Shown: piece after piece, positions 2,361 to 56,666 of the stretch
Layout of the letters: every line of letters starts with the position of its first letter
Numbering within the stretch: position 1 is the stretch's first letter
Assembly: GCA_043228905.1 (NCBI GenBank)
Contig: JBHGNT010000009.1
Coordinates: forward strand, 11,222,001-11,286,000
Reading direction: 5' to 3'
DNA length: 64,000 bases
Origin: Azolla caroliniana
Lineage: Eukaryota; Plantae; Polypodiophyta
Translations under genes and position numbers: made by a program
The notes under the pieces: model-generated
Told to the model about the DNA's origin: nothing
What the model saw: only the letters and a program-made list of their open reading frames with translations
The model's database searches: none

Positions 2361-2807
2361 TGTTACCCGGCCGGCAAAGGAGCAGAGACCAAAATGTGAA
2401 AGGGATGGTTATTCGGAATATATTTAATTAAGTAGATTGGATTATAATTATGTAGTGAATGGACGGACCGGAATCGATATGTCGATCTGGATCCAGACCG
2501 ATTCCGAACAGGTGCTGGTTGGCACCGTTTTGTACGCAGCACCGGTGACCTATATAAAGGCCCAGTTACAATGTATAACTTTAATGGAGAATTAATATAA
2601 GCTTCTTGTTTTATCTTCACGTATTGATTACTGTTCTGAATTAATTGTTATATCTTACGCGTGTATTAAGTGTATGCCTTATTGCTAAGTAGCTAATGTA
2701 GTCGAAGTAATCGTTGTGTCTTAAGTTATCTCACTGTAACACCCTTTGGTGAAGTTTATTCCGGAGACACCCTGTGTTAGGCCATTGTCCGGCCCTAATG
2801 ATTAACA
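2361..2807 (+). repeat. 5' LTR of gypsy A
   Basis: TG...CA ends, TATA-like CCTATATAAAGG near 2549, direct repeat of 18324-18770. Confidence 0.95.
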
Positions 2808-3747
2808 CAGTTTTTGGCGACCACGATTCCTGCACAATCGCAGCGAACAACGCTGGGAATGGATGACGTGACCAACGAACGACCCGGTTACGGAGCGTCC
2901 AAGGCGACTTGTTGAACGGCTGAGGAAGCGAGAGGCTTTCCAGCAAGCGGCAGAAGAAATCAGAAACGCCTACCTGGACGAAGGAAGCAGCCTAAGCAGC
3001 CTCCAGGAAGCAGAATCCCTTCTCCAGGCATTGGTAGCGGGGGAAGACGAATCCGAAGCATTTTTGGCATTTGAATCAGGTTCGGACGGGGAATACAGTG
3101 CGCTGACGAACTACCGCAGCAGTAACGACACCCCAGGCGGACCAGAGGACGAGGAGTAGGATACTTTGCCGACACCAGAACCCGAATCGACAAGGCTAGA
3201 AACTCTGGTACCAGAAGTCGACCACACTCTGGAACCAGAAGTCGACAACGAGAGACCTCCGACACCGGAAGTCGAGGAGGAGAAGCCTCCGACACCACAA
3301 GAGGAGCAGGAAAGACCTCCGACGGTGACAGAAGATCGGGGAAAACCTCCGACACCACTAGAGGAGGAACGACCACTGACACCACCAGCCCGTGTACCGA
3401 CACCAGACGACGATATGTCATTCCAATATCCCAAATACCAAGATGATCCGGACGTGGAAGCCCACATCCATGCGTTTTAGCAGACTTAGGAAGCCAACCA
3501 TGTGTCCCAACGCTTAAATGCAGCCGAAGAGGAACACTCAAAACAGGCAGAGTTTGGCATGACCTTGGAGGGACCGGCCGCCAGATGGCACCGAACACAG
3601 GATCCTAGCACCATCCCCACATTTGAAACATTAAAGACAAAATTCTTGCATTTCTTCCACAAGGAGATGGACCAGCGGGAAATGGTCAACTTATTTTACA
3701 ATATCCGGCAGGAACCAACGGAGAACATCCAACAGTTTGTCATCCGG

Positions 3748-4434
3748 TGTCGCGTTGTTACGCGCCTGCGTGGAGAACAAGGTGGGACCACTGGGGTCTT
3801 GGACCGAGGAATAGGTGAGGAAGCGAAAGGAGAGAGAGAGAGATACACGCTCACACACGTATAGACAAAAAAGCGCGCGGGAACGCAACCCAACAACACA
3901 AGAGACACAAGTTGAGCAGGAGATAGGGTAAAAGGGACGCGTAAATAAATATATGTATGCAGACGACTAGAACGGTTACAGCCGATCAGGTCGGCGAGAC
4001 GGGTGTCGACGCATGATCACCCACGCACATAGGGGAGCAAGATGGAGATTCTGTCGGAAGCGCACGGGCGTTCGACGGGGCAGAATCAGCCTCTTGAGAA
4101 CCTGCGCAAAGAAAGCTAAGGAGAACGACATAGGAGAAGAGCTCGGTCCCAGTCCGACAGCACTTCGTCCCCTCTAACGCGCGATACCTTCTCTCCCCCG
4201 TCTCCCTCTCTTTTATAGCTCAAGGAGGGAGGCCGTCTTGCCCATTTACATCACATTAATTCTTTGTCCTTTCGGACAGAGATACTCCTCAATTCTCCCT
4301 ATAGAATATTGCTACCTAGGATTTAACCCTTGCGCATACCTATCTTCTTTACGACAAGTGACGTGCCCACGTGTAAGGGCCGGTTCACACACATTATACA
4401 CGGTTTGCGCCTGGGGACGGTTTTCTTCACGACA
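3748..4434 (-). repeat. 3' LTR of element B
   Basis: Direct repeat of 9607-10293; on the minus strand it reads TGTCGTGAAG...CGCGACA. Confidence 0.95.
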
Positions 4435-4510
4435 TCCGCCCCCACCTAACCGCGCATCCACCGGTATGCGCCAAAGTTGGGTTCCTACGGGAGAAAACCG
4501 ATCCTTGCTT

Positions 4511-7439
4511 TTATTCCTTGTACATGCCCCCTAGGTCCGGCTCCCCGTCGTGCCGTTTCTTGAACGCTTTGATCCTCTTCCCCGCTACCGGTATCGCCAT
4601 TCTCGTACCGTCGAGCTCTGCGAGATGGTACGTCCCATTGCCGTTGGCGCCTGTTACTACGTAAGGCCCGAACCACCTCCTCGCAAACTTCCGCGTGGCC
4701 CTGTGTTGATTGTCGAGGCTGTTGTCGTAGACTAGCACCCAGTCGCCTTCCTCGATCTTTCTTGGCCTGGACTTGTGTGTTTGGTCGAACCGGGCTTTGT
4801 TCCTTATCCTCGCTACTCGTAGTTTCTCCGTGACTCGCTCTACGTCCTCCGGCCTCCGCTCGAGCTGTCGAATCCGCGCCGCCAACAGTTCCTCCTGGCT
4901 CATCTCATCCCTCCAGTCCACCATGGCCCACGAGGAGATCGTTCGCTCTGCTAGCATGATCGGTTTTTGTCCGAACATCAGCTCGGCCGGCATGAACCCG
5001 GTTACCGAACTGTGCGTGGTCCAGTCCGCCCACAAGGCATAAGGTAGCAGCCGTGGCCAGTCCCTGACTCGGCCTCCGCACGCCCGTACTAGCGCTTTGA
5101 CAATTGGCCCGTGTCCACGCTCCACCTTCCCATTCGCCTCCGGATTGTACGCCGTGGTGAGCGAAAGTTTGACTCCTAGCCGGTCGAACAGCTCTTCGGC
5201 CTCTTCTGCGTCCAACTCACCACGGTCAGCCACGATCTTCCCTACGCACCCGTATCGGCATACTACATCCTCAATCAAAAACCGGCACACGGCTGCCGTC
5301 GTCTTGTTCTGCAGGGCTCGGCCTTCAACCTGGTTCGTTAGATCTTCCCGAGCTAGCACAAGATACCGCATCTGTCCTACCCCCATTGGCATCGTCACCA
5401 AATCCACCATCCACTTGAAGTGGACGGTCGGAGGGTAGGTCAGGTGCAGCTCGTCCCGATGTCGGATCATGGAGTGCACCTGACAGCTTTCGCAAGTCGT
5501 CACGAACCGATGGTCCCGGCCACCAGTACTTCCCCATTAGCTTTTCGAACGTGGCCCACCTTCCACGGTGTCCAACCCACGGGCTATCGTGGTACGCCGC
5601 CAGCAACTCCTCATGTTCCTCCTTTACCGCCGAAACGATACCCCAGAGCTCGCGTTTAACCTGGGCGTATCCTCGTTGTTGCTCGCTGAGGACCTTCGCG
5701 CCGAACTGGATCGGGAAATGCATGTCGTCCTCGTCCTCCTGGTTGACGACCCATCCGATCCCGGTCGGACTCGTGTCTACCGTTACGTAAACTGGAGTGC
5801 TCCGTCCGTAGACAGCCTTTCGGAGCGCCGGAGCCGCGGCAAGTGCTCCCTTCATCTTCCGGACAGACTCCGTATGCTCGTCTCTCCACTCGAATTTTTG
5901 CCCCTTTTTCAGCAACCCGTATAACGGCTCCGCGACGTGAGCGTAATGCGGGATCCATATATGGTAGAACGCGCACGCTCCCAAGAACCTCCGAACCTCC
6001 GTGACTGAGCTACAGTCGTTCTTCATCGTGGAGATGGCTTCTACCTTAGTCGGAGACGGTTTCCGGCCGTACAGCCCGCATAGGTGTCCGACGACCATGA
6101 TCTCTGATTGCCCGAAGGCCGATTTTCCCCCGGAGAAGGTGAGCCTCGCGCCCTCCAACCTTTGGAGCACCTTCTCGCAGTCATCGATGTGCGCCGCCAC
6201 GAATTTCCGGCATCCGTCCGGTCCAATCGTCTCGTCCCTTTCCTCCATCGGGTATCCTTTGATCGGGACATCGTCCAAAAACGGCATGGTTATGTCCGGG
6301 ATACAATCCCTCAGCACCTTGTTCATTGCGTTCACCATGTGAGCCACCGAGTTCGTCCCTCCTTGCTGCAGGGTACACATCCGTACTAGGCCGAGAGGAG
6401 TTCGCATTGTCGTGATGTCTCTGCTCTCTACAGCGAGCTGGAACTGATCGTACCCCGAGTAGAGATCACCGACCGAGTAAATCGACCTTCCGGCGAAGGC
6501 CTCCGCGAACTCGTCTATTGTCGGTCCGATTCCTGCGTTTCGAATGGTCACCTTGTTGACCGGCTGCAGGTCTTGAATAAAGCGCAGCATGTCGTCCTTC
6601 TTCGGCACGGTAAACCACCGATTCGAGTATGGGGCACTCGACGGTTCGAGGATTCCCATCTCCACCTTCTGCTTTAACAGCTCCATCAGCTTCGGGATGT
6701 GAGCTCTGGGTACTGGAATCGGTTTGAGACTCCACGGCACATGCGGTACCGTGAATATCACCATCATTTCCACGACTGTCGGGTCTACGCACCCAATCTC
6801 CTCCGGTGAGAATGCGAAAGCCTTCCCGTGCCTTCCGAGCATTCCCCGAAAACGGTCCTCTTCCGCCAGCAGTAGGAAGCCGCCCCCACCGATTTTGAGC
6901 TCGCGTAGCGTTATATCGGTGAACGTGTGTCCTATGCGGGCCGGATTTCGTAAACTCGGGTCCGACACAACCCCCTTTATTCGCAACTCGCTGCCCTCCG
7001 GCAAGGGAGCCGCGACTGGCCTCACCTTCCGGTCCACAGTCTTGTACCTCGTGTCCAGCCGGGCGGTCCGATCTGACTCGAGCCCTCTACTGAATTCCGC
7101 GATGACTTCGTACATCTTTTTCGAACATACCGGAATCGTCCGGTCCTCTTTAAGGACTCCTCTACCTACCTCTCGCAGCTCCCCCAAGGTATCGTTGAAA
7201 GAGACCGCCTCCACGGCTCCGTTGATTTCCTCTCCAAGGCCGAGGACGCCACATGCCCGAAGTCGCTCCTCCGCCCTTTTCTTCTTCCGTCCAACAACGT
7301 CAACTATCGTACACCCTCCGTTGTCGGAGAACCAAAATTTCCTACTTATAGTACAGGGATTCTTCGCTATCATACACTTGTGGGGTTTTCCCAGAGTGTC
7401 CGGACTATCGCGGCCCCACACAATGATAGCCCTCTTCAA
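4511..7439 (-). pseudogene. pol (RT, partial RNase H, integrase) of element B, in the -1 frame relative to gag-PR
   Basis: YKTVDRKVRPV, DLYSGYDQ, FLDDVPIKG, VDTSPTGIGW, VDLVTMP, YNPEANGKVERGH, RWFGPY; frameshift near 5510; internal deletion near 5622. Confidence 0.9.
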
Positions 7440-9562
7440 AAATCCTCCCAGCTTTCGCCCCCGAGGGTCTCGCGGTTCCTCTCATGGTTTGGTCTCACCG
7501 TTAGGAACTGGACCGAGTGGCGCCCATCCTGGCTCTTGACCCTTGCATAGGCCGAGCTGTTGTCCAGCACCTTGGTCTCCATCCGTGCTGCCGTGATGTA
7601 CGGTTCTCCTAGTATAACCGGGTGTGAGGACGTCTCCTGCACGAAGAACTGCTGGTCAATCTCGACATCGCCGATCTTTACTCGTACATTCGGGCAAGCT
7701 CCATGCAGTTCTTCAGTGGCGCGCGTCGCTGCCCGTATCTTCCACCCATGCTTGGTTTTGATCGGCCATTTCCCCTTCTTATAGAAGTCCATGGACATCA
7801 AATTGATTTCTGAACCGTGGTCCACCAACGCCACCACCGGTTCATGAACATCTCCGATCTTCACGGGGGTCTCCATGGTCGCTCTGGCCCAGTGCGGCCT
7901 CGAATAGTGGCTCTCCGCCAACTTGTCTTCCAGCGCCATGTCCTCTATGTGCGTCGTCCGCACCTCCACCGGCTTCTCCAGTTCTGTCTCCGTCGACAGC
8001 CTCTTCCTCTTCACCAAGTCTACGATGGAGTCGTGGAACTCCTTCTTGGCGATCCCGAGCACTTCCCTCAGCGACAGTTCCACCTTGTTGTCGAGGATTC
8101 GTTCTTCCAGGACCTTTCGCAGGTCCGTGGATCTTTCGATTTCTGTGCCCAGCCAGTACCCACCCTTCTTGGGATTATCCTGGGCGCCGGTTACAACGGC
8201 CTCATTCCGTCTTTGCCCGAACCGAGTTTCATGTCGCTGCGAGGGCCCGGCCCCTCCGGTTTTCCCTACCCGCTTGTCCTCCACCAGAGCCTCGTAGTTT
8301 TGACAAGCGGCTTCGACGAAGCCCGTCCTTTCTTCCACCGGGTCACTCCACCCAGTTACCTCCCGGACCCGTTTTTCCGCGCGGTCCACCTCTTCTTTCC
8401 TCAGTCGTGCGCTGGCGAGGCCTTCGAGCATCGTTGGCCAGAACCCGGCTTTGTTCGTCTTCGGGGCCTCGCCACCTCCGACCCGAATACCAATTGACGC
8501 CGAGTAGTGGACGGTCTCCGCGTCACGAGCCGCCGCCTCCTCCATCAGCCTTTTCATACCCCCTTGCCCAACGTTCAGGTTCAGGGCCCTTCGGGTCTCG
8601 CTGGCGTGCACCCAACCGTTCCACAGGTACACCACGTTGCTTCTCATCGCCTCGGCGAAGTCCCCGCAGTCCTTCCAGATGTGCCCAACCGCGTCACACC
8701 ACATGCACCTGTTTTCAGCCAGAGGTCGTCGGTCACGGGCCTGTTCGCCACCATCCCTTCGTGCCTAGGCGATCTGGAGATCCCTTACCATCCGCATCAG
8801 CTCCTCCAGAGCTGCTCCCCCGGACGAGCCCTTGACCACGCCGGTTGAAGCCGATCCGGTCTCGAGCCAATCTCGGGTCTCTTCCCTTCGCGTTGGTGGT
8901 ATTGGCTCAAACTTCCTTACTGCGACAGAGCCCGCCCTTGTCGATCCTTTGTCAACCCATTCCCGCCGTTTGTCGAAACGGCCACAGACCCTTTTCACCA
9001 CGGCCCAGTCGGCCGTCAGCCCGTCATCAGTCTCCAATAGGAGGCCTACCTGCTCCCGATCCCGCTCGTCAACCGACTTAACAAACAATAGGACACGGCT
9101 TGTGTCCAAAACGGTCCGGTCAAGCACCGAGAGGCGCGCGAAGCGTTCCTCAAAATCCCGAAGGAGCACTGACGCGTTCCTTCCTTTGTCGGGGGTCTCC
9201 ACCCACTCCATGAAGTCCCGCTTCGAAAGTCGAAGTGCATCTTCAAGCCCGTATCTTTCGAGGAGCCGACCTTCGAACTCCTCCTAGGTCCGGCTCTCGG
9301 CTCGTACCTCGAGCACCTCCGTATGGATACCCGGCATCACCACTCGGGGGAATCCGGCTAGACGCCTCTCTTCCGGAATGTCCCTCATTACCATCTCAGC
9401 CCAGTAGGACGCCAAGTAGCTCGTGGCATCCTTTCCACTAAACCGGCCGATCGTACCGACAACCGCCTCGATAGCCCTATCAAGGGTGCCGGTGCCTTCG
9501 CGCGCACTCACTATACGGTCTACATCCGAAGCCATGGCTTCTGTGAGGTCCAACCCCCTCAT
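7436..9562 (-). pseudogene. gag-protease of element B
   Basis: Three ORF pieces (9562-9284, 9211-8765, 8704-7436) separated by TAG stops and one frameshift; CxxC-GH-C knuckle; aspartic protease ALVDHGSEINLM and VILGEPY. Confidence 0.88.
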
Positions 9563-9585
9563 CTTCTACTCCTCTGCCGCCTGTT

Positions 9586-9602
9586 TCACGTCAGGTTCAC
9601 CA
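9586..9602 (-). promoter_or_regulatory. Primer binding site complementary to the tRNA-Trp 3' end (element B)
   Basis: Minus strand TGGTGAACCTGACGTGA matches the plant tRNA-Trp 3' end (...TCACGTCGGGTTCACCA, recalled from memory) with one mismatch; 4 nt from the LTR. Confidence 0.75.
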
Positions 9603-9606
9603 AATA

Positions 9607-10293
9607 TGTCGCGTTGTTACGCGCGTGCGTGGAGAACAAGGCGGGACCACTGGGGTCTTGGACCGAGGAATAGGTGAGGAAGCGAAAGGAGAGAGAGAGA
9701 GAGACACGCTCACACACGTATAGACAAAAAAGCGCGCGGGAACGCAACCCAACAACACAAGAGACACAAGTTGAGCAGGAGATAGGGTAAAAGGGACGCG
9801 TAAATAAATATATGTATGCAGACGACTCGAACGGTTACAACCGATCAGGTCGGCGAGACGGGTTTCGACGCCTGATCACCCACGCACACAGGGGAGCAAG
9901 ATGGAGATTCTGCCAGAAGCACACGGGCGTTCGACGGAGCAGAATCAGCCTCTCGAGAACCTGCGCAAAGAAAGCTAAGGAGAACGACATAGGAGAAGAG
10001 CTCGGTCCCAGTCCGACAGCACTTTGTCCCCTCTAACGCGCGATACCTTCTCTCCCCCGTCTCCCTCTCTTTTATAACTCAAGGAGGGAGGTCGTCTTGC
10101 CCGTTTACATCACATTAATTCTCTATCCTTTCGGACAGAGATACTCCTCGATTCTCCCTATAGAATATTGCTACCTAGGATTTAACCCTTGCGCCTACCT
10201 ATCTTTTTTATGACAAGGGACGTGCCCACGTGTAAGGGCCGGTTCACACACATTATACACGGTTTGCGCCTAGGGACGGTTTTCTTCACGACA
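9607..10293 (-). repeat. 5' LTR of element B
   Basis: Direct repeat of 3748-4434, adjacent to the PBS. Confidence 0.95.
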
Positions 10294-13200
10294 CCGGTTC
10301 CAGCGGATACACAATCAGCTCAGCCGGACACCACCGGAGGAAGAAACAAAGGCCATATTCTTAGCAGCACTCCGGAAACCCTTACGGACGGTGTGCACCG
10401 TCATCGATTTCCGCACCAGCAGCATAGATCAAGTGATTGACCGAGTTTGGGAAATGGAAAACTTGAGTTCATGGCTAACCATGGGCGCACTGCAGCGTAC
10501 GCTACCGACGGAAGAGGACCTCCGTTTCCGACAAGCAGTTCAATGTATGATATGCCTGAATGCCGGACATTCAGCGTTGGAATGCACCATGCGTTCCCAA
10601 TGCTTGCTCTGCCACTCCAGAAGTCACACAATGGAACGGTGTGAGTATAACTTGTTAAATCGACAAGCACCACCGGTCCGGCAAATTGAACCACGGAGCA
10701 ACCGAGAGGAAGAAGAAGAACAATGGTGGCGAGAGGAGCGCTACCGGCCAGCACAAGATGTCTGGTATAGCGATCGAAGACACGCGTATGACCGGTATGA
10801 TAGACAGGATAGGTACCAGGACTATAATGGATGGTATGAAAGATATAACCGGGATCGCTCCCCTGGTTACAACCACCGACAGGACGACTATGGCAAGGAT
10901 GAAGATCAGCCCCGGCAAGGATACCGCACCAAAAAGAATTTCAATAAGAAATGTCATTTCAACAGAAAGGGGGGTCATCCACGAGAACCGGAAAAGGGCG
11001 CTCCGAGCAGCCAACCAAACCAAAACCAAGCACTTGCCCCCGGTCCGCCACCAAGCACACACGCCGAATCCAGCAATGCCCGGAAGCCGTACTGCTATTA
11101 TTGCCAGCAAGAGGGCCACTATAGTAATCAATATCCGGCAAAGAGCTACGACAAGCGACCAGCGGTGAACATGGTAGACACGGAAGTCGCGGACCTACAA
11201 CAAGTCACTACAAGATCAAAAGGCAAAGCCACGGAGTGGGAAACTCAAGAAGCCATCCGAAAGCAGGCAACCGAATGGGTGAAGAAGGCAAATGAGCGGA
11301 ATGCAGCAGAGCTCGAACAAAAGGTGAATGCCGAAGAACTCGCCGGCTCGGGGCAACCCGAAAACCCAACAGGGCAGGCGTTACAAGAATGCCAAATCAC
11401 ATTGCCGTTAGGCCGGCTATTGCAACTGGTACCACGGTTCACGGAAGGACTGAAGACCGGAAGGACGACAGCTGACACACCACCGGCTCCGGCATTCTTT
11501 TCAAATCCGGAGGAAGGACCGGCAGTGGTGGACACAAGCAGTCCAGCAATCATAGCCATCGTGAAGGGAAAAGAGCTACCCGGCATGATTATCGATGGAG
11601 GATCCGGCGTGAACATGATCAGCCTCCGAACGTGTAACACGCTAGCGGATGGCGGACACTAGCTCAGTACGGCCGACCGGATTAATACGCGATATGGAAG
11701 TGACCATCGGGGGTCACACATTTCGCATTTCCATAGTTCTCTAGCTACAAGCTCAGGGAGCTTACCCACTATTGTTGGGACGGCCCTGGTTTAAAACGGC
11801 ACACATAAAGCAAAATTGGAGGAAGAACATAATTACGTTCCAGTGTGGAAAAGCGAAAGTACGAGTACGGACTCAACCACGATCCAGTACCGGCAAGGAA
11901 TCAATGTCGCTATATGCGGAATTTGTTAACATGCTGGAAGGATTGGCGGACGAAGAGGTCGATCAATACTTACAGGAAAATCCGAAGATCGTACCTCTGT
12001 TCGAGATTGATGTAGCCAAAGCAGTATCACCGTACGTACTGCAACCGGACGAGACCGACAAGGAACCGGATAAAGAGGCAATCCGGGAATTACGGCAAGC
12101 ACAGGAGGCACTGGAAAAAGAAATGGCAGTATCACAGCGCGTGAAAGCATCCCAGCTAGAAGAGGTAAACCTAAGTACCACAGAGGACACAAGACCGGTG
12201 CACATCGCCAAGGAAATGACTTCGGAGAACAAAACGGCAATGATCACACTCCTAAAAGAATTTCATGATGTGTTCACCTGGTCCTACGAAGACATGCTAG
12301 GACTCGATCCTCAGTTATATCAATACCAGATACATCTTAGCAAAGACGCCAAACCGGTAGCGCAACGGCGTTACCGGATGAACCCGAATTACGCAGCAAA
12401 GGTCAAAGAAGAAATCGACAAGTTGCTGAGAGTGGGTTTCATCTGACCGGTAAAGAAAGCCACATGGCTTAGCCCGATAGTGGTAGTACCCAAAAAGAAC
12501 GGTAAGATCAGAGTGTGCGTCGACTACCGGAAATTGAATGCGGCTACGGTAACAGACGCCTTCCCACTTCCATTCACGGATGGAGTCCTGGATGCAGTCG
12601 TCCGTCATAAGGTGTACAGTTTTCTGGATGGTTTCAGCGGCTATAATTAGATCCGGATGCACCCCGCCGACCAGGAGAAAACAACTTTTGTCACCGAATG
12701 GGGAGTCTTTGTTGTCGTAGTGATGATGTTCGGACTGAAAACAGCAACGGCACCGGCAGGTGTTTTTGGATGACTTCGTTGTTTATAGCTAGGAAGGGGA
12801 TCACCTTCAACACCTCCGACTATGCCTAGAAAAATGTAGGGTTTACCGACTAAGCCTGAACCCGGCAAAATGTGTGTTCAGAGTAACCAGCGGAGCATTA
12901 TTGGGCCACATAGTGAGCAAGGACGGTATCGCAGTGGATCCGGACAAAGTAAAAGCAATCCTGGAGGCACCGGCACCAGCCACAGCACAGGCACTAAGCC
13001 GGTTCTTAGGACAAATTTGGTGGCATAGCCGAATGCTCCGGTATCTGGCAGACCTGGCTACACCACTGCATGCCGCAGTACATCGGACACAAAAGACCAA
13101 GCTTACCGGGCACTAAAAGTATTGTTGTCACAAGCGCCGATGGTGCAACCTCCGGATTGGTCCAAAGAGTTCCATGTGTTCGTTGACGCGTCCGACATTG

Positions 13201-15049
13201 CAATCGGGAGCGCACTGATGCAACTGACAGAACCAAAATGGTACCGGCTAGTCTATTATGCCAGCCGGAAGTTGTCCCAAGCGGAACATAATTATTCCAC
13301 GACGGAAAGGGAGGCTTTGGGAATGATCTACAGTGTCACCAAGTTTAGACACTATCTGTTGGGAAGGAAATTTTCCTTTCACGTAGATCATTCGACGCTC
13401 CTCTATTTGGTGTCCAAAGCATCACTTGCCGGTAAGCTGGCCCGGTGGACGTTACTACTGCAAGAATTCGAGTTCGAGATATTCCACCGACCCGGCATAC
13501 AGCATGCGGTAGCGGACTATTTATGCCGGCTAGATTCCGGCGAAACCGGTGATGGAGTCCCAGACGACTTTCCGGATGCAGAGCTGTTTAGAGTCATAGC
13601 AAAAACGGCAACAGACAGTTCGGTCGTAGAGGAAGACAAGTGGCTCACCAATATGCACCAATTTCTGAGCATCGATTTACCTCTGGAGGAGATGAATAGA
13701 GACGAAAGGAAACGCTTAGCGGTTCAAAGCTGGCACTTCTGTCTAGTGCAGGACACACTGTACCACAAAGGCGCAAATGGCATATGGCGGCGTGCAGTGC
13801 GCAGTGATGAAAAGGAAGTAATATTGCGCGAGGCACACTATGGCGTGGCCGGAGGACATTATGCCGGAGACGCTACGGCAGGGAAAATATGGCAGAGTGG
13901 ACTATGGTGGCCAACAACATTCAAAGATGTAGTCCGGTACGCTAAAGAATGAGACCTATGTCAACAAATGGGGCAACCAACCGAACAAGCCAGAATGCCT
14001 CACCTGCCCGTGCTACTGTTAGAACCATTTCAGAAATGGGGGCTAGATTTTGTCGGTCCGTTCAAACCATCGACAATGAGAACCGGCAACCGGTACATGA
14101 TCGTCACTACGGATTATTGCACGAAATGGGTGGAAGCGAAAGCACTACGCGACAACACCGCGACATCCACGGCAAAAATTTTATATGAATGCATCTGGTG
14201 CCGATATGGATGTCCGAAAGAGCTCATAAGTGACCACGGTGGGCACTTCTTAGGGCAAGTAGTGGAAAGTTTGACGACATTTTATGCGGTGGTGCACAAA
14301 CGGAGCCCTCCCTATTATCCGCAAGCCAACGGATTAGCAAAGTCAACAAATAAAACACTACAGAATATCTTGCGGAAAATCGTCAATGAGAACCAGACGG
14401 ATTGGGATACAAAGCTGCACAATGCACTCTAGGCCTACCGAACGGCATATAAAACAAGTATCCGCACAACACCGTTCTGCTTAGCATTCGGATTAGAAGC
14501 AGTGATGTTGGTAGAGTTCCAGGTCCCAAGTTTACGAATACAGATTCGGGAACGCCTAAATGAGAAGGAATCGGAAGCTATCCGGTTAAACGCGTTGTGC
14601 GAATTGGAAGAACACTAGCTAGCCAGCATCATGCACCTAGAACTAGAGCAGCGACGAAGGAAGGCGTTCGTGGATCGTCACCGAAAAGGGAACGAAAAGA
14701 TGTTCAGCATCAGTAAGCCGGTACTCGTATTCCAAACCCGGATGGGTAAGATGCTGGGAAAGCTACGGTTTCGGTGGACCGAACCATACTAGATTACGCG
14801 AGAGTTCAACGGTTCCTACCAATTAGGGACACTCGTCGGCAAGGTTCTGGGTAAATGGGTCAACGGGTTCCGACTCAAACCATACAATGGACCCATGCCA
14901 AGAAACCCATTTGAACAAGTGAAGGGCGACACAAAACCAGACACCGGTAAGTCGAAAGCGCCGACAAGCGGTCCAGCGTCCGGCAAGAATCACAATCCGG
15001 ATAGGGGTCCAATGGGACCGGTTGCTAATTAGCAAAACCATTTATTATC

Positions 15050-15121
15050 AAAAAGAAAGAAAGAAAGAAAGAAATCAAATCAAATCAAATCAAATCAAAT
15101 CAAATCAAATCAAAGTAAATC
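15050..15121. repeat. Compound microsatellite (AAAG)n(AAATC)n between pol and the extra ORF of gypsy A
   Basis: Directly visible. Confidence 0.9.
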
Positions 15122-15458
15122 ATGCAAGGGCGAGGGGTGAACGGACACATGCAAAAAGAAGGAGTGAACAAGCACTTTGAAAAGGTATGTAGTGGGCTAT
15201 TAATAGGGTATTAAACCGCCGCCACATGGCACGTCATTCTATTTTAGTACACGACGTGCACATGCGCGGGTAATGAAAAAAGAAAAAACAGGCGCCAACA
15301 TGCAACAAGAAGACCCCCGCCACATAGAAACCCTCACATTTCGCAAACAGAGGAGCACAAACGCAGACAGGTGATTAAAGATCAGCAAACGCGAACCCAC
15401 GCACACAGAGACTCCTCACACACAACCCTCACCAACGCTCACTGACCTCGACGAAGCC

Positions 15459-18270
15459 ATGGACTGCCAAGCACTCTCTGAAGCAGCCAAGAAGTGGCTA
15501 AGGAAACACGGCTTAGAGGGTTTCCTCACCATCATGGAGGCGCCACCGCACCGGGAGGCGAAAAAGATAGTCAAAGAAATCGACACGGAGCTGATTACTG
15601 AGGAGGCCATCCATGCGTTGATTGGCCTTCTGGAAGGGGGAATCTTCACTATCGACAACCCTACCCCGGAATAGCTCCAAAAATACTTTGGGGAATACTC
15701 TCTGGCAAGCAAGGCCTACCGGACACAAGGCGGCGAAGATCCTCTCTTTCGAGAGATTGCCCGGGTGCTCCATGAATTCGGACATGTATACCCTCGACCC
15801 CCCTGCATGCCCCAGAACCGGGCCAGCTTAATCATAGCCACATATGAAGGCGTGAAGGTGGACTGGGCAGTACTGATTGCGGCCATCCACTCTGTTAGAG
15901 GCAAAGAGGGTCGGAAGATATGGACGGCGTTGGCGCAATCACTCACTCTATTGGCGCCACCTATCGAGCCCGTCAAGACCACGAAGCGGGGAAGAACAAT
16001 TGAAGGCACCCCGAAAACAACCTCTAAACGGCAACAGTTGTTGGCGTCTAAGGCAACCAAAGGGAAGGCGGCTGACACGGACCAGGCGGCAAAGGAGTGT
16101 GCCAACAGGAAGCGGCAGGCGGAAACGCAGGACGAGCCACCGGTGCAGCCAATCAAGATTAGGCTTAGCCGACCGGTTCAACAAGCGTCGGACCTCTTGG
16201 CAGCGAAAATCAACATCGAGACTTAGGAGGAGGAACCGTTAGAGCACCTCTAGCGGCGCCAGAAGGCAAGCACATCCGAACATGCCGGGGAGCGTTCGGA
16301 CCCAAAGAAGGATGGAACGCTTGTACCCCGCCCTGAGCAGCCCGCACCAAGGATAGAACCGGCCACAGAGCCCCCTCCACAACAACCTCTACCGGCGGGT
16401 CAGGATACGGCAAGACCCGATATGCAAGCGCCGGAAGTATAGTTGCCGACCCCACCGGCAGGCCAAGAGCGTTCAGAGGCGGAGCGGCCAACGGAGCGGC
16501 AACCAAAAATGGCAAAGTGGTCACCAACAAGAGCCAGAGTTGCAGCTCGACGCAACTGGACAAAACCGACCACTAGCCAGCGACACCAATAGCCAACCCT
16601 CTAGGCAAACGCAACAACAAGGCACCGGCAGCCAATGGCTCCGGTGGATTGGAGAACAGATTGATGGAGTGGTACACTACATAGAGGCGGAAGAGAAAGC
16701 GTAGATGGATCGGTTGCTTGTCACGACCAGAGAACTAGAGACGACCCGGTCAAGGATCCGCAGCCTAGAACAAGACTTGGACCTAGCCACAGAAGAATTG
16801 GCCAAAATGGCCTTAACTGGACCACAGCTCCAAGCACCGGTGACCCCGGTCGATGTACAGAATAAAGAAGCACCAGCACCTGTACATAGCAATAAGACCC
16901 TGGAGACGGAAACAGTCCCAGAGATTGTGGTAGCGCAAGCAAAGGAGCTTGTTGAATTAAGAGATGAACTGGCCGCACATGAAGCATTACGGACCCGAGA
17001 GCGGGACTTGAAGAAAGCGGCAGAAGAAGAGCAACGAAAGACTGCTGAGAACCTCCGCAGGGCAGAAGAGAATCTGCGGAAAGGACATCAAGCCTATGAC
17101 TGGCTGAAGGAGGAGAAAGAGAAGGTGCTACAAGAAAAGGAGAAGCTGTGACGGATGGCGGAAACAGAGATCGAAAGGCTGAAAGAAGAACTCCGTCAGC
17201 AAAAGGTCCGGGAAGACCACGCTCGCCGGCAACTCAACCAAAAGCTGAAGCAGAAAACCGATGATTTTGAGCACCTGCATCGGGACTACAAGCACCTGGA
17301 TACAGAGCATAAGAAATAGTAGGAGAAGATGGTAGAGCTCCTACAGGAGGTACATCAGGTTGAGACGGCGTTGGCGGAGGAACGGGCTGAAAGAACCACG
17401 CTGCTGGAGGAAGCCGCGCAAGAACGGATGGAGTTGCATAAGCAGCATTATGAAGAGAAGGAAAGAGCGACGATGATCTTGCAAAGGCTGCATAACACTT
17501 ATCAAACCCAACTGTCACATTGCCAGGAGCAGGAGGTGGATACGGTGGCACTCATCAAGCAGTTGAAGGACGAACGGCAAGCCGCAGAGGACAAATCAAA
17601 GATGGGATTGGAGCGGATCCAGTTCATTGTCCAGGCATGGAGGAACAAGACCAAATGCTTGATTGACGAAAGCTCCACGCAATGGTGGGACAAATGGGCA
17701 AAGCACACAGCCGAGCTCCAGTTGCTACGGGCAGACACGGAAAACCGGAAGAAGGATGGCGACGACTGCTACATGCTAACGAAGGAGGACTTCACCGCCG
17801 TCAGAGAGGACTTAGCCGAAGATTTTATAACTATGGCGGAGGAGTAGGTAGCAGTGGTCCGGCAACTTGTAGCCCAGCTAGATGATGATCGACTGGATGC
17901 TCAAATCCAGTTTGAGAGCTATGAGCGGACCAGGCTACGGAGAGAAGAAGCAAAGCAGGCGGCGATCGTCAACCTCAGCGATGAGGAGCCATCACCAGAG
18001 CAAGGACCGGATGGAGACAAGGCCGGGACGAGTCAACCGGAGTCAAATCCAACGGAGCAGCTAACGGAGGAATCACTGCCACAACCGCCGGTACCGGGAG
18101 CCGAACAGACGCCCTCTCAAGAGCAACAGCAACCACAACAGCAACAACAATAGCAGCCACAACAGCAACAACAATAGTAGCCGCAACAACAACAACAACA
18201 ACAACCGAATTCTGAACAACCATTGGATACCCTAGAGCATAGTATTATGGACATCTTGGACAAAGGCTAA
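15459..18270 (+). pseudogene. Degenerate additional ORF (about 900 codons) of gypsy A: globular N-terminus, Pro-rich linker, long coiled coil, poly-Q tail
   Basis: ORF pieces 15459-15674 and 15765-16226 share one frame; 16705-17151, 17329-17847 and 17854-18153 share another; most breaks are TAG/TGA stops; the frame ends at TAA 18270, 53 bp before the 3' LTR. Confidence 0.75.
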
Positions 18271-18323
18271 GGGCCGGATAGTGGGATTCGACGTACAAGG
18301 TACTGTCCCACGGGCGTGCCATG

Positions 18324-18770
18324 TGTTACTCGGCCGGCAAAGGAGCAGAAACCAGAATGTGAAAGGGATGGTTATTCAGAATATATTTAATTAAGTAGAT
18401 TAGATTATAATTATGTAGTGAACATACATACCGGAATCGGTATGCCGATCTGGATCCGGACAGATTCCGAACAGGTGCCGGTTGGCACCGTTTTGTACGC
18501 AGCAACAGTGACCTATATAAAGGCCCGGTTACAATGTATAACTTTAATGGAGAATTAATATAAGCTTCTTGTTTTATCTTCACGTATTTATTACCGTTCT
18601 GAATTAATTGTTATATCTTACGCGTGTATTAAGTGTATGCCTTATTGCTAAGTAGCTAATTAAGTCGAAGTAATCATTGTGTCTTAAGTTATCTCGCCGT
18701 AACACCCTTTGGTGAAGTGTCTTCCGGAGACACCCAGTGTTAGGCCATTGTTCGGCCCTAAGGATTAACA
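18324..18770 (+). repeat. 3' LTR of gypsy A
   Basis: Direct repeat of 2361-2807, followed by TSD GAGAT. Confidence 0.95.
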
Positions 18771-20852: not shown

Positions 20853-20911
20853 CTTTGTGAAGTAGAACTTGTGTATGTTCTGATTGATCGGCAAGTTGCC
20901 AATATCTTCGT

Positions 20912-22067
20912 TGTCGTGAAGATTTTCGACAATGGTGTGAAAATTGCATAAAACATACGAAATTGAGTATGAATCATATAAAACAATAATAGTGAAAAGA
21001 CTAGTTTAAATATGTTTAATATCCTAGTACAAAAAGATGGAGGTCTGCAAGAGCTTTCGAATGCACCTTACTACATAAGAAACGGACATCTAAGTCTCAA
21101 GTTATGTGGGTAGGAAGTTTGCAAAGGGAAAGAGAAAAATAAAACTGTGAAATATCCCACATAGAAAGGAAAAGTTTAGGCCCAGCTATATAAGCAGATT
21201 GAGATCCATCATAAATCATCTATGTGTTAAGAGCACATAAGAAATAGTTTGACTTGAGCCACTTTTGTCTAGATGGACATATGTGGCTAAATTGCTAGAT
21301 GTGGCTAAGTGCCCGAACCGGTTAGTGAAGAAACTCAAACCGGCTTACGATAGAACCGGAAATCGGATGGAGTCGACAATCGGTGACCGAATGCATCTGG
21401 CAACCGATGATAGAACCGGTGATCGGTGGTAACCGGCGACATCCGGCGGCCGGATAGATATATAAATAAATATATGTATACACATATATATATACACATG
21501 AGTGCAAGTGTGGATTTGAACCTTGCACCTCCAAGTTGAGAGTCTATAGGTTTACCATTAAGCCAAGACATTTTCTTGAAATAATATTTTTATCATTGTA
21601 ACTTTACATGTAAATTTTCATACATGAGAGCTAAAATGAGTGACGTGGTTATCATGCACCACATGTAATACATGAGCGCCAAATGGCAAACATGCATTTT
21701 ATGCATGTCTTGAACCCTCAAATGCATGAGGGCATCTATAAAAGAGGGGATGAAAAAGACAAAAGGGGGATTTTTTTGTAATGTAAAATTCTTATCAAAG
21801 AAGCTTTGTACTTTATATCAAAATTAATATTAAGAAGAAAATTCGTTATCTAATTGATGTATTAATCTTGTTCTTCAAATCTAAAGTCAAGAGTTCAATC
21901 TTAATCTCTCTCTGAATCTAAAGTCAAGCGTTTAATCTCAATTTCTTTCTCTCTCAATCCATCTTAAATACTTTCTCACTAAAGCTTGTGCAACTTCGAA
22001 TCCTTTCAGTCCAGAACCCCGGTGGTTCTGCCCCGCGATCCACGCGTAGTGACGGAACTTCACGACA
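20912..22067 (+). mobile_element. Solo LTR (1156 bp) related to the B/D lineage, inserted in the copia RNase H end
   Basis: 10-bp terminal inverted repeats TGTCGTGAAG/CTTCACGACA; flanks TCGT and TCGC restore the IFAKP codons; TATA-like CTATAAAAG near 21737. Confidence 0.8.
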
Positions 22068-51800: not shown

Positions 51801-52283
51801 ACCAAGCAGTTGCCAGTGCAAATAATTGCTAGATTAGATAAAATGATATTTATAGATCTGAATCCATTAATTGCTAATTACTCATCTCATATGTGGGTTT
51901 TACACTCTAGGCCAATTGCTGATCTGCAGTGGGGTCCATCTGATTATGGTTGGAAGTTATCCAGGTCTGACACTTCGCAAACGAAAGTTCTTCCATTCTT
52001 CACATATTCTGTGGCATTGGGTAGAAACTTTTTGTTGAATTAGATAGAGTCGGTACCTGTGGGGAAAAAGTATTGGGAGGAAGGTAATTTGTCATCTTCT
52101 CATTTGTTGAAGTTCTAGAAATAGTTTTGGTCACTTGAATGTATGAACAAGGTATTGCATTTTCGATGGTTGATGATTCAATATACAATGCTAGTAGGAG
52201 ATTTATTGAGGGAACTGGTGCCTGATTGATCATGTGTTCCATGTGGGTTTGCATCTAAGACATTGCATCATGTTTTTTGGGAC
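48900..52283 (+). mobile_element. Degenerate LINE (L1/Tx1-like) ORF2: RT and C-terminal zinc finger, 3' truncated; left boundary approximate
   Basis: WRPITLLNVIYKILAK, DFEKVYAKVDW, IRQGCPLAP, FVDDT, RYLG, PKRKGGLGL, CVPC...LHHVFWD. Confidence 0.88.
50325..50880 (-). mobile_element. Solo LTR (556 bp) inserted in the LINE; same family as the LTR at 25603-26612
   Basis: TGTTG...CTAACA; flanks GTTGT and ATTGT; shares ACCGGCCACAACC, AACGTGGAAACCCT and TTTCCTAACA with the 25603 LTR. Confidence 0.85.
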
Positions 52284-55099
52284 GGCCAAACGTACAAGGA
52301 AGACACAAACACACGCAAGAATGCTCGTACGTCTTTTGAGGAGGAGAGGTGCATGGGCACACCCGAAACACTCCCTCGTCATAAGACGGCCGAACGTACA
52401 AGTGGATGAGAAGAAAGAAAGAAAGAAAGAAAGAAAAAACACAAATGATATTGGCTAAAGAAATAAATATGTGTTCAATTCCAACGCAAGAGGGCCCTTT
52501 ATAAAATAGGGTTTGATTACAATGTGGAAACTTGTAGTTAACCACAAGCTCAACAAAACATAAATACTAAATGCCCTTAGAGACTAGAGCAAATCCAAAC
52601 ATGGAGCACAAACACGACGAAGACGAACACACGAGCACCACAAAAATGCCGACCCCAACGAACCACGACCACCCGAATGGCGAGCACACGGGCTCACAAC
52701 GACGAACAGGGCTCGCAACGTCCAACCAACAAAGCTCGGGCTCATGAGCACCGTAAACAAGCACTTCGAGTGCCAACGTGAAGAAGACGAGCACGTGGCG
52801 ATGAGGGGATGAAGGGGTATGAGATGAAGAGAAGTGGTGAAGATGAAGATGAAGCGCTCCAAAGGAAAAATGGCGATAGTCTCCTCCTCCCAAAACGAGC
52901 CCTCCTCGACCTCCTTTTATAGGAAAAAAAGAAGGGGGGTCACCAATTTTGGCTTCAATGAAAAAGGAATAAAATTTCTTAGATCACGCTGCATTGTAAG
53001 ACCGGATTTGAACCAAGCACCCCTAGCTAAAAGTCAATGTGACTATCCACTAGCCCATTAGCTCTCTCTTATATAATATATAATTCTATATCAACAAATT
53101 CATAGCATGTCTCCCCTCTACTTTTTATCTCTCCTCTCTCTTACTTTTTGCACGAGCTTCTATACCTCCGTTCCACCCTTTCTTTTCCTTTTTCGTTTGC
53201 ATGTGCACAATTAATTGCCTTTGTGTGCACACACATTGGACATGCACATTTTGACCCCCGCCCCTTTCGCCGGTTTTTCCCACTCTCGATCACGTGACAA
53301 CACGACATCCACCCCTACCTAACCGCACATCCTCCGGTATGTGCCAAGAATGGCGGGCTGAGGGTGGTCAATAGTTCCTTTCCTCCTCCTCATTGGCCCC
53401 GCGGCTTGTTGTTTGCTCGTCTTTATCTTCGTCAAGGTCATCGAGGTTTGGCTCCTTGTCCCGTCGCTTTTTGAAGATTTTGACCCGCTGGCCTACTATT
53501 GGTACTGCTAGCTTAGTCCCATCGAGTTCAGCGAGGTGGTAGGTGGCATTATCGTTTGCACTCGTTACCACGTACGACCCGAACCATCACTTTGAGAATT
53601 TGCACACCGAGCTATGTTGATTGTGGAGACTGCTATCATACACAATCACCTAGTCTCCTTCTTCGATCTTCTGAGGGCGTCGTCGGTGTGTCTTGTCGAA
53701 CCGAGCTTTGTTACTTAGCCTAACCGCTTCTAACCTCTCCTTTGCCAACTCCAAGTCTTCGGGTCTTCTCTCAAGTTGTCTTATCCTTGTTGCTAGAAGC
53801 TCTTCTCGACTCATCTCGTTTTCCTACGACATCGCTACCCATGACGCGATCGTGTCTTTAATGGGCATCACCGACTTTTGTCCGTACATGAGTTCAGCTA
53901 GCATGAAACCTGTAACTGAGCTATGAGTTTTTCTGTCAGCCCACAAGTCATAGGGTAGTAAACAAGGCCAGTTCCCGACTCGCCCATCACAAGGTCTTAC
54001 AATGGCTTTTACGATAGGCTCGTGTCCGTGTTCTATCTTTCCATTAGCCTCCGGGTTATAGGCGGTCATGAGAGAGAGCTTCACTCCAAGTCATTCAAAG
54101 AGCTCTGTAGCTTCATGAGCGTTCAACACTCCTTTGTTGGCCACTATCTTTCCCACACATCCGTACCGGCAGATGACATCCTCGAGTAAGAATTTACACA
54201 CCCCCGTTGTCGTTTTGTTTGCTAAGGCTCGCCCTTCTACCTGGTTTGTTAGGTCTTCTCTTGCTAGCACCAAATATTTCATTTGACCCACTCCCATTAG
54301 CATCAAAACCAAATTCACCATCCATTTGAAGTGTATGGTGAGTGGGTAGGTCGGGTGCAACTCGTCCCTATGCCGTATGTTTGAGTGTATCTAGCAGTTT
54401 TCACACGTCCCCACGAAATGGGCGACATCCTTGTACATTCCCGGCCACCAATACTCTCCTTTAGCTTCTTGAATGTTGCCCACGTTCCTCTATGGCCCGC
54501 CCAAGGAATCTCGTGGAACTCAGACACCAATGTTGTCTGGTCCTCTTCCTTTATGACCACTCGTTGTGGCATCCCCATCCTTCTCTTCGGGTGCCCCCAG
54601 AGGAATCCCCCTTGTAGGAAGTACTTGTATGCTTTCTTTCGGACTCTCTGTGCTTCCTCCTTTGACCATGAACTATCCACCGTCATTGAGCTTAAGAACT
54701 TGCCAATGTGTAGCCACTCCCCTTCGTATTCACTTTCGTTGAAGGCGTGGAGTACTCGCACATCTCGATCATCTATAGACGCTTGGGCCGTCTTAAAGAA
54801 GTCAAGAGCGACATCCTCATCTTCAGACATCATGTCGCTTTTGCACTCGAATCTTGCCGTCAATAGCATATCTGCCATGGCATTGTTCTTCCCTGAAATG
54901 TGGTGAATCTCCAGGTTCATAGATTTGATGTAAGAAATCCATCTTAGCATAGCTAGGTTAGGTGTTGCACATCCCGAAACCATCCCTAGGATTGGAAGAC
55001 AATCTGTCTCTATTACCACCTTTGACCTGATTAGGTAATCTTTATCCGCCTTCACTGGGGACACAATACCCCAAAGCTCGCGTTTTACTTGGGCATATC

Positions 55100-55857
55100 T
55101 GTTAGGAAATAGGTCCCTCCGGATGGGAAGTGAGAAGAACAGTGCTAATGAGAATCTCAGCCGAGGCCGAAACTGGATGTCGAGTACCCGGCAACGGAAG
55201 ACCCGGTGAGAACCGGATGTGGCGTACCCGGCAAGCGCCGGATGAAGAGTACTCGGGAACGGAAGACCCGGTGAGAACCGGACGTGGTGTACCTAGCAAG
55301 CGCCGGATGAAGAGTACCCGACTACGGAAGACCCGGTGAGAACCGGATGAGGAGTATCCGGCAAGAGCCGGATGGTGAAGGTCCGGTGAGAAGTGCTCAC
55401 CGGATGAAGGGACATATTCATAAATATGTTTCTTGAGAGTCCATTGGGGCTATATTTGTAAATAGCCGAAAAGTCATATTAGTATAAATATGACTTAGGG
55501 CAAACTTAGAAGTTGTTGTTGTCATTCTTGTTGGCACAAGATTAGAGCGCGTAACTGTGTACAGAGAGAGTGAGAGAGAGGAAGAGGTCGTTGCCTCTGT
55601 TGTAATCGCCGCCTGTGGCGAAGATAGAAAGCTCGAGGTCGTTGCTTCGGTGTTTTACCATTTGTACATTCGGACATAGTGATAGTTTGCAGTTTGGGGG
55701 CTGCCGTGGTTTTCTTTCCCTAGTTTGGGTTTTCCACGTTAACATCCTATGTTCTCTTCTCTCCATTGTGTCATGCATTCATTCCCCATTTTCTGTGTTT
55801 GATTCTAAGCTCGGTTGTGACCGAGCGTTGCTAATCTAGAGCGTGTAGTTCTTGTCA
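55100..55857 (+). mobile_element. Solo LTR (758 bp) in the RNase H of element D; TSD ATATC; internal repeats of about 65 bp
   Basis: TGTTAGGAAA...TGTCA; ATATC at 55095-55099 and 55858-55862; CGGAAGACCCGGTGAGAACCGGA occurs three times; related to the 25603 and 50325 LTRs. Confidence 0.88.
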
Positions 55858-55991
55858 ATATCCTCATTGTCGCTCGCTTAATACCTTGGCTCCGAACCGG
55901 ATGGGTTAGCATGTACCATCCTCTCCTTCTTGGTTGATGACCCATCTGATCCCTATTGGACTCGTATCTACCGTCACATAGATGGGCACCA

Positions 55992-56666
55992 CTTCCTTGT
56001 ACGTTCAGTCGTCTTGTGAGGCGGGAGCGTTTCGGGCGTGCCCATCCACCTTTCCTCCTCATAAAGGCGTACGAGCATTTTCTGTGTGTGTTTGTGTCTT
56101 CCTTGTACGTTCGACCGTGTTGTGACGAGGGAGCGTTTCGGGTGTGCCCATGCACCTCTTCTCCTCATAAAGGCATACGAGCATTTTGTGTGTGTGTTTG
56201 TATCTTCCTTGTACGTTCGACCATCCTGTGATGAGGGATCGTTTTGGGCGTGCCCATGCACCTCTCCTCCTCATAAAGGCGTACAAGCATTTTGTGCGTA
56301 TGTTTGTGTCTTCCTTGTACGTTCGGTCGTCTTGTGACGAGGGAGCGTTTCGGGCGTGCCCATGCACCTCTCCTCCTCATAAAGGCGTACGAGCATTTGT
56401 GTGTGTGTTTGTGTATTCCTTGTATGTTTAGTTTTCTTGTAACGAGGGAGCATTCAGGCTTGGCCATGCACCTCTCCTCCTCATAAAGGCGTACGAGAAT
56501 TTGTGCGTGTGTTTTGTGTCTTCCTTGTACGTTCAACGTCTTGTGACAAGGAAGTGTTCGGGTGTGCCCATGCACCTCTCCTCCTCATAAAGACGTACGG
56601 GCATTCGTGTTTGTGTTATCGTCCCCTTGTGCGTTCATCTTGCGTGGTCATCTTTGCTTGTATCTA
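55992..56666. repeat. Inverted copy of the element D LTR segment 60701-61374 inserted in its own pol
   Basis: Reverse complement of 60701-61374; identical spurious 136-aa ORFs at 56165-56575 (-) and 60791-61201 (+) apart from one residue. Confidence 0.93.

What the first reader, a model, noticed from the sequence alone, without database searches (positions are those of the whole stretch)
3744..10297. 4-bp, CG-centred target sites for the B/D gypsy lineage
Seen: B is flanked by CCGG/CCGG, and removing it plus one CCGG restores the host gag frame. The related solo LTR 20912-22067 is flanked by TCGT/TCGC, restoring the IFAKP codons. D has CCGG at its intact end (63001-63004). The other LTR insertions with both flanks readable have 5-bp TSDs without CG (GAGAT, AAGAT, GGCAC, CTTGA, ATATC, RTTGT). 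All three sites lie inside other retroelements. Inference: the integrase makes a 4-bp stagger and prefers YCGN sites, possibly steering it into methylated TE DNA even though no chromodomain is visible. Only three sites support this.
Basis: partly seen in the sequence, partly recalled or inferred. Interest (0 to 1): 0.7.

Follow-up and report, generated by a model that had tools for sequence, protein, structure and literature searches.

The report
CG-targeting plant retrotransposon, Phygy type
A family of plant jumping genes inserts almost only at CG dinucleotides and duplicates four bases there, a habit already described for the moss Phygy group to which it likely belongs; whether it also senses DNA methylation is untested.

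Summary
Of 1029 exact B-type LTR starts, 620 are not preceded by the PPT end; 528 of these (85%) follow NCGN and 583 follow NYRN. CG background is 3-5%. In 58 paired ends, 51 show a 4-bp duplication (at most 1 mismatch) and none a 5- or 6-bp one. Two control families give 5-bp TSDs, with CG central in 1 of 68 flanks. 'YCGN' is wrong: the motif is VCGB, ACGT is best and T first is rare. The trait is in print: Neumann et al. 2019 give Phygy a 4-bp NCGN TSD, a tRNA-Trp primer and no chromodomain, all met here. No Phygy reference sequence was available for a tree. Insertion flanks are repetitive more often than matched CG sites (70% vs 44%). That fits steering into TE DNA but does not show methylation sensing. 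The scan's own notes showed no earlier record of this trait. Verdict: real, a likely new member of a known kind.

The parts
3748..10293 (-). Element B, Ty3/gypsy, 6546 bp; defective copy (stops in gag, about 160 codons fewer than relative P0001 between RNase H and integrase, a frame break)
3744..3747 (.). TSD copy CCGG at B's 3' end
   Evidence: single CCGG in 9 of 11 uninterrupted host copies
10294..10297 (.). TSD copy CCGG at B's 5' end
9607..10293 (-). B 5' LTR, 687 bp, TGTCG...CGACA
3748..4434 (-). B 3' LTR, 96.4% identical to the 5' LTR (18 transitions, 7 transversions)
9585..9602 (-). Primer binding site complementary to the 3' end of host tRNA-Trp(CCA), 4 bases after the LTR
4435..4451 (-). 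Polypurine tract ending GGA directly before the 3' LTR
   Evidence: 409 genome copies of the LTR start follow GGA
7436..9283 (-). gag (weak DUF4100 match) and protease frames
5325..7481 (-). RT (FLDD), RNase H and integrase zinc finger
4511..5536 (-). Integrase core (DRGEL at the second catalytic Asp) and SH3-like end with GPY motif; no chromodomain
20912..22067 (+). Solo LTR of a related subfamily (S), 1156 bp, flanked by TCGT (20908-20911) and TCGC (22068-22071), inside a copia RNase H region
60482..63000 (-). D 5' LTR, about 2.5 kb with an internal array of about 105-bp units; followed by a tRNA-Trp PBS starting at 60476
63001..63004 (.). CCGG next to D's 5' end (one side only; partner not readable)
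52281..60481 (-). D internal region (RT-RH 73% identical to B; integrase end 53368-53586 without chromodomain; inverted LTR piece and a nested solo LTR inside) and truncated 3' LTR starting at 53307
2361..18770 (+). Host gypsy element A (5-bp TSD GAGAT) in whose gag B sits; used as control family

Best explanation
B, D and the solo LTR belong to one tRNA-Trp-primed Ty3/gypsy lineage without chromodomain that duplicates 4 bp around a central CG, and it is likely a member of the Phygy clade whose integrase likely selects the CG itself. Shown: TSD length, the CG centre, the symmetric VCGB motif (ACGT best), the PBS, the domain order. Inferred: the integrase multimer cuts the two strands 4 bp apart, bends the target at the central step as other 4-bp integrases do, avoids T at the joining base, and adds a near-obligate read-out of CG. 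Inferred: TG/CA centres are mostly later deaminations of methylated CG. Because CG is concentrated in repeats in this genome, CG choice alone raises landing in detected repeats from 25% to 44%. The further rise to 70% likely reflects a chromatin preference or the loss of insertions from single-copy DNA.
For: Whole-genome counts: 1029 LTR starts, 409 after the PPT end GGA, 528 after CGN, 583 after YRN; 1289 LTR ends followed by NCG (denominator not counted). CG background 3.0% in 320 kb of evenly spaced regions and 4.9% in flanks. Host-flanked ends of three subfamilies (B 154, S 61, D 23): centre CG 194, TG 24, CA 16, other 4, TA 0 of 238. Paired ends: B 27 of 41 exact and 36 of 41 within 1 mismatch at 4 bp, S 8 and 15 of 17; none at 5 or 6 bp; 53 of 56 TSD pairs have CG in at least one copy. 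Controls: gypsy A 7 of 8 and copia 12 of 15 exact 5-bp TSDs; CG central in 1 of 68 flanks. Motif: ACGT 44 of 141, 6.8-fold over background, TCGA 0; reverse-complement pairs balanced (ACGC 12/GCGT 13, ACGG 19/CCGT 16). Outer base away from the junction: A 123, C 54, G 44, T 13 of 234. tRNA-Trp match. Phygy: 4 bp (100%) NCGN, tRNA-Trp 81%, no extra domain (PMC6317226). 4-bp retroviral integrases favour central YR and disfavour T/A at the outer TSD positions (PMC4422553). ZAM integrase binds CGCGCg directly in vitro (PMC2527525 abstract). In unnamed metagenome contigs, 8 of 9 plausible 3' LTR/host junctions read NCGN and 1 reads ACAT (ends picked by eye among candidates).
Against: No Phygy reference sequence could be read, so clade membership rests on features, not on a tree. 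Un-nested full-length B-type copies are 5.7-7.8 kb, mostly below the 7.7-10 kb given for Phygy. Repeat enrichment beyond CG availability (124 of 177 vs 204 of 463 matched CG sites) is not explained by sequence read-out alone. 3 of 56 TSD pairs have TG/TG or CA/CA, a few more than double deamination would give, so CG may not be absolute. 37 of 620 non-PPT starts are not NYRN; they were not examined and may include mutated PPTs. No biochemical evidence exists here for direct read-out.
Confidence: 0.72

Rival explanations
1. The integration complex prefers methylated CG or methylated heterochromatin, by reading 5mC or through a host tether, and so steers itself into silenced TE DNA without a chromodomain.
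For: Flanks hit repeats in 124 of 177 events (70%) against 177 of 400 random CG sites (44%, region-bootstrap CI 29-58%), 204 of 463 motif-matched CG sites, 9 of 24 gypsy A and 3 of 21 copia flanks. Without own-lineage hits: 87 of 138 vs 108 of 359, 6 of 21 and 3 of 21. 40 of 238 flanks show TG/CA, so these sites were likely methylated at least after insertion. Phygy nested in Tcn1 was the commonest nested pair in moss (PMC6911290 passages), and Phygy is enriched in predicted centromeres of a liverwort (PMC12885004 passages).
Against: No methylation data. Flank GC, CG density and CpG o/e do not differ from random CG sites (o/e p=0.24, CG/bp p=0.38). The repeat index is crude (320 kb library, 40 regions) and selection against insertions in genes gives the same sign. 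The PPR gene in the window is itself CG-depleted (o/e 0.39), so composition cannot tell methylated from unmethylated DNA here. No reader domain is seen after the integrase. CG-type targeting exists in Drosophila ZAM, a host that I recall lacks CpG methylation.
Confidence: 0.22
2. The lineage is not Phygy but a separate seed-free-plant clade that shares the 4-bp NCGN target and tRNA-Trp primer by older common descent or convergence.
For: Phygy was defined from one moss and called species-specific. Sizes differ. Named close relatives are from Riccia (about 50-67%) and Ceratopteris (49-53%); no Physcomitrium-named protein was among the hits listed.
Against: Four independent features coincide with Phygy (TSD length, NCGN, Trp primer, no extra domain), and Neumann et al. 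found NCGN in no other plant lineage. LTR length varies from 0.65 to 2.5 kb between subfamilies here, which can account for size.
Confidence: 0.12
3. The pattern is only the generic preference of 4-bp integrases for a flexible YR step, combined with CG-rich targets.
For: Central YR and avoidance of T at the joining base are general for 4-bp TSD retroviruses and both are seen here.
Against: TA is 0 of 238 although it is 5-7% of background steps; TG and CA are each more common than CG in the background yet together make 40 of 238. Retroviral YR use is only about 63% above chance; here CG is about 17- to 28-fold above.
Confidence: 0.03

Closest known systems
Phygy clade, non-chromovirus Ty3/gypsy of Physcomitrium patens (Neumann et al. 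2019, PMC6317226; passages, section 9 and Additional file 5 read)
   Same: 4-bp TSD, NCGN target, tRNA-Trp PBS, no chromodomain or aRH, no extra ORF, coding region filling the internal part.
   Different: Another host genome; B-type copies shorter (about 7 kb vs 7.7-10 kb); motif refined here to VCGB with ACGT best. Sequence kinship not tested.
TatI (4-bp TSD, tRNA-Trp) and Selgy (4-bp TSD, tRNA-Ala), same paper
   Same: Non-chromovirus lineages of seed-free plants with 4-bp TSDs.
   Different: TatI carries an extra aRH domain, not found here; Selgy uses tRNA-Ala; neither is reported with NCGN.
ZAM of Drosophila (PMC2527525, abstract only) and the Drosophila gypsy group (PMC3276498, passages)
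   Same: Gypsy-type integrases with 4-bp TSDs and sequence-specific palindromic targets; ZAM targets CGCGCg and its integrase binds that site.
   Different: Different lineage and host; most Drosophila families use ATAT or TATA; ZAM's site is longer.
PFV and MLV-type intasomes with 4-bp TSD (PMC4422553, abstract and sections 6 and 14)
   Same: Central YR step, T and A disfavoured at the outer TSD positions; PFV integrase is the best solved-structure match (E 9e-9).
   Different: Weak preference for any YR there, near-obligate CG here; the small residue at PFV Ala188 has no small counterpart in DRGEL.
Fungal DUF4100-bearing gypsy elements (Smittium culicis P0137, P0140); possibly the Ylt1 lineage (name from PMC2864245 passages; link recalled, not tested)
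   Same: RT-RH 39-45% identical, DUF4100 gag, DRGEV motif in P0137; they fall in the same large starred clade.
   Different: Their TSDs were not examined; no Ylt1 sequence was available.

Membership tests
Phygy | Clade membership on RT/RH/INT trees (REXdb) | not testable with these tools
   The reference FASTA and element table are too large to read; my tree has no Phygy row.
Phygy | 4-bp TSD | tested here: met
   51 of 58 pairs within 1 mismatch at 4 bp, 0 at 5 or 6 bp.
Phygy | NCGN target motif | tested here: met
   528 of 620 genome-wide; 194 of 238 sampled ends.
Phygy | tRNA-Trp primer binding site | tested here: met
   6 of 6 loci matching the PBS complement are tRNA-Trp(CCA) genes; PBS present in B, D and S types.
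Phygy | No chromodomain, no aRH, no extra ORF; coding region fills the internal part | tested here: met
   Pfam on B, D's integrase end and relatives; integrase frame ends 76 bases before the 3' LTR.
Phygy | Size 7.7-10 kb | tested here: inconclusive
   13 un-nested B-type copies measure 5.7-7.8 kb, 1 of them inside the range; S and D types have longer LTRs. Neumann et al. call size a weak criterion.
TatI | Extra archaeal-type RNase H (aRH) | tested here: not met
   No second RNase H family in B or in P0001, P0002, P0026.
Selgy | tRNA-Ala primer | tested here: not met
   PBS matches tRNA-Trp.
Chromoviruses (Galadriel, Tcn1 and others) | Chromodomain after the integrase | tested here: not met
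Ylt1-like fungal gypsy | RT/INT clade with Ylt1 | not testable with these tools
   No Ylt1 sequence returned; the original paper is not held.

The most novel reading that the evidence does not exclude
This lineage, spread through liverworts, ferns and with fungal kin, has an integrase that reads methylated CG directly (candidate determinant: the lineage-wide DRGEL loop, 152 of 195 close relatives, lacking the small target-contacting residue of other integrases) and uses it as a chromodomain-free route into silenced repeats.
Probability: 0.15. Interest if true: 0.7.

Novelty: new member of a known kind. Interest (0 to 1): 0.27.

Why it matters
The trait itself is published, so the finding mainly extends it: another genome with more than a thousand LTR copies, a sharper motif (VCGB, near-obligate CG, no TA) and relatives in Riccia and Ceratopteris. 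Plant LTR elements otherwise show little target sequence choice (PMC6317226), so this lineage is a good system to ask how an integrase reads a dinucleotide and whether methylation counts. I found no mechanistic study in three searches ('Phygy', 18 papers listed, passages read in 3, 'NCGN' plus 'retrotransposon', 2 listed, 20 of 54 listed); subscription journals are not covered. The duplicated CG also records later methylation, since one copy often decays to TG or CA.

Tried and rejected
YCGN motif: rejected. 5- or 6-bp TSD: rejected. Orientation-dependent target: reverse-complement 4-mers are balanced. A longer motif: outside the TSD only a modest C at -1 (39%) and G at +1 (35%) stood out. Composition as a methylation proxy: flanks equal random CG sites and a gene is CG-depleted too, so it is uninformative. 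The first repeat test used a library enriched for loci near these elements; it was redone with evenly spaced regions only. Bisulfite runs: none was listed. Phygy or Ylt1 reference sequences: not obtained; Additional files 1 and 3 of PMC6317226, which I could not see, bear on membership. The ESM Atlas gave only generic rve clusters. PMC5014426, PMC7466625 and PMC12810828 (passages) had nothing on this target motif. Rows set aside: ends next to a PPT or PBS were classed as internal (132 of 286 B ends, 15 of 76 S, 7 of 30 D); 1 of the first 100 matches (a PPT-preceded one) was not fetched; 6 of 177 plus flanks shorter than 250 bases were left out of the repeat test (B 111, S 43, D 23 used); some long pairs may be false pairings. 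Earlier scan notes: no match by words or sequence; 8 of 35 shown for the genome concern other elements.
Full report
Observation. B lies at 3748-10293 on the minus strand, with 687-bp LTRs that are 96.4% identical and CCGG on both sides. The host gag frames on either side are in register with a 4-bp duplication. In 11 other copies of the host element the site is a single CCGG in 9, CCTG in 1, and CCGG plus the right flank in 1 whose anchor failed. The solo LTR 20912-22067 has TCGT/TCGC. D has CCGG at 63001-63004, but its other end is truncated. Five of the six control TSDs were located without doubt; AAGAT fits several spans.

One lineage. B, D and the solo-LTR type share a PBS and a PPT. The PBS complement matches 63 places in the genome, and 6 of 6 checked are tRNA-Trp(CCA) genes. 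D's RT-RH is 73% identical to B's. Solo-type LTRs elsewhere are followed by a gag 31-35% identical to B's. B encodes gag (weak DUF4100), protease, RT, RNase H and integrase, ending in an SH3-like GPY region with no chromodomain and no second RNase H. B itself is defective.

Genome-wide test. An exact 21-base LTR start occurs 1029 times. 409 follow the PPT end GGA, leaving 620. Of these 528 follow CGN and 583 follow YRN; 37 were not examined. CG makes 3.0% of dinucleotides in 40 evenly spaced regions and 4.9% in flanks. The 3' end pattern followed by NCG occurs 1289 times. In loci chosen by LTR match and not by flank, 238 host-flanked ends had centres CG 194, TG 24, CA 16, other 4, TA 0. Of 58 pairs, 35 match exactly and 51 within one mismatch at 4 bp; none matches at 5 or 6 bp; 53 of 56 TSD pairs keep CG in at least one copy. 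The control gypsy A gave 7 of 8 and the copia 12 of 15 exact 5-bp TSDs, with CG central in 1 of 68 flanks.

Motif. Among 141 CG-centred sites the first base is A 79, C 32, G 22, T 8 and the last is T 77, G 40, C 18, A 6. ACGT is 6.8-fold enriched and TCGA absent; reverse-complement pairs are balanced. Using only the base away from the LTR junction gives the same picture. D-type flanks have more T first (5 of 19).

Context. With a library of evenly spaced regions, 124 of 177 flanks hit a repeat (70%), against 44% of random or motif-matched CG sites (CI 29-58%), 25% of random positions, 9 of 24 gypsy A and 3 of 21 copia flanks. So CG choice explains part of the nesting and something else adds to it. 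Flank composition equals that of random CG sites. No bisulfite run was listed. Methylation steering is neither shown nor excluded; selection against genic insertions points the same way.

Mechanism. Shown: 4-bp symmetric duplication around CG. From established work: 4-bp intasomes bend the target at a central YR step and avoid T at the joining base (PMC4422553, abstract and sections 6 and 14). Inferred: this integrase adds a specific read-out of CG, since TA is never used and TG/CA behave like decay products. ZAM shows that a gypsy integrase can bind a CG-type site directly (PMC2527525, abstract). A candidate determinant is the DRGEL motif at the second catalytic aspartate, found in 152 of 195 close relatives, which lacks the small residue at the PFV Ala188 position. 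In PFV and HIV that residue contacts bases outside the TSD, so this is a lead only.

Relatives. Named homologues are from Riccia (about 50-67%) and Ceratopteris richardii (49-53%), then the fungus Smittium culicis (39-45%). B groups with the Riccia proteins in a starred clade of 26 rows. Of 80 metagenome loci, 14 show the Trp PBS and 8 of 9 plausible 3' junctions read NCGN. An earlier scan note suggests a fern host (e1-10587443); I did not test this.

Known kind. Neumann et al. 2019 write that Phygy elements prefer NCGN, the only such case in plants, and list 186 elements with 4-bp TSD (100%), tRNA-Trp (81%), 7.7-10 kb and no extra domain (PMC6317226). All testable features are met except size, which is inconclusive. 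The tree-based definition could not be tested because the reference files cannot be read. TatI, Selgy and chromoviruses each fail a defining feature. Phygy nests in other elements in moss (PMC6911290 passages) and has been annotated in a liverwort (PMC12885004 passages). I found no mechanistic study.

Verdict. It is a likely new member of Phygy. Interest 0.27; the methylation-reading case has probability about 0.15 and would deserve about 0.7.

Noticed in passing
TSD pairs of B and S types (e.g. L081, L109): Where the left TSD copy starts with G, the right copy starts with A in 7 of 8 pairs, while the mirror change at position 4 occurs in 2 of 16 (p=0.0007). In the first 100 rows the matching counts, made by eye, are 8 vs 15 (p=0.18). 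It may be CHG deamination at the new LTR junction or false pairing; the asymmetry is unexplained.
   Followed up: partly
window 18300-18323 and loci L199-L228: Host element A has no purine tract before its 3' LTR. Earlier scan notes on this genome (e.g. e1-10598290) describe such elements with a tRNA-Arg-like site there; I did not test the tRNA match.
   Followed up: no
window 60729-62124 and 55992-56662: D's 5' LTR holds a tandem array of about 105-bp units, and a 671-bp inverted copy of it (99.4% identical) lies inside D's pol region.
   Followed up: no
L082 (C1:23122700) and L114 (C2:11547504-11547522): Two LTR 3' ends face each other head to head, joined through cut-off PBS stubs; possibly fold-back or aberrant cDNA products.
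   Followed up: no
G000:C8:17796786-17823371, C16:4989495-5105657, C5:10105608-10112201: Clusters and tandem arrays of matches to the tRNA-Trp 3' end, about 1.2 kb apart on C8; 63 matches in the genome, 6 of 6 checked are tRNA-Trp genes.
   Followed up: no
L339-L378: CG density is very patchy (8-87 per kb); CG-rich regions are mostly the repetitive ones, while the PPR gene and the copia element are CG-poor (o/e 0.39 and 0.33).
   Followed up: partly
L139, L130/L144, L153, L134: Several S-type elements are only about 4.7 kb long, with gag but short internal parts; possibly non-autonomous derivatives.
   Followed up: no
window 44214-47474 (-): Intact 1086-aa PPR gene with E motif amid the repeats.
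   Followed up: no
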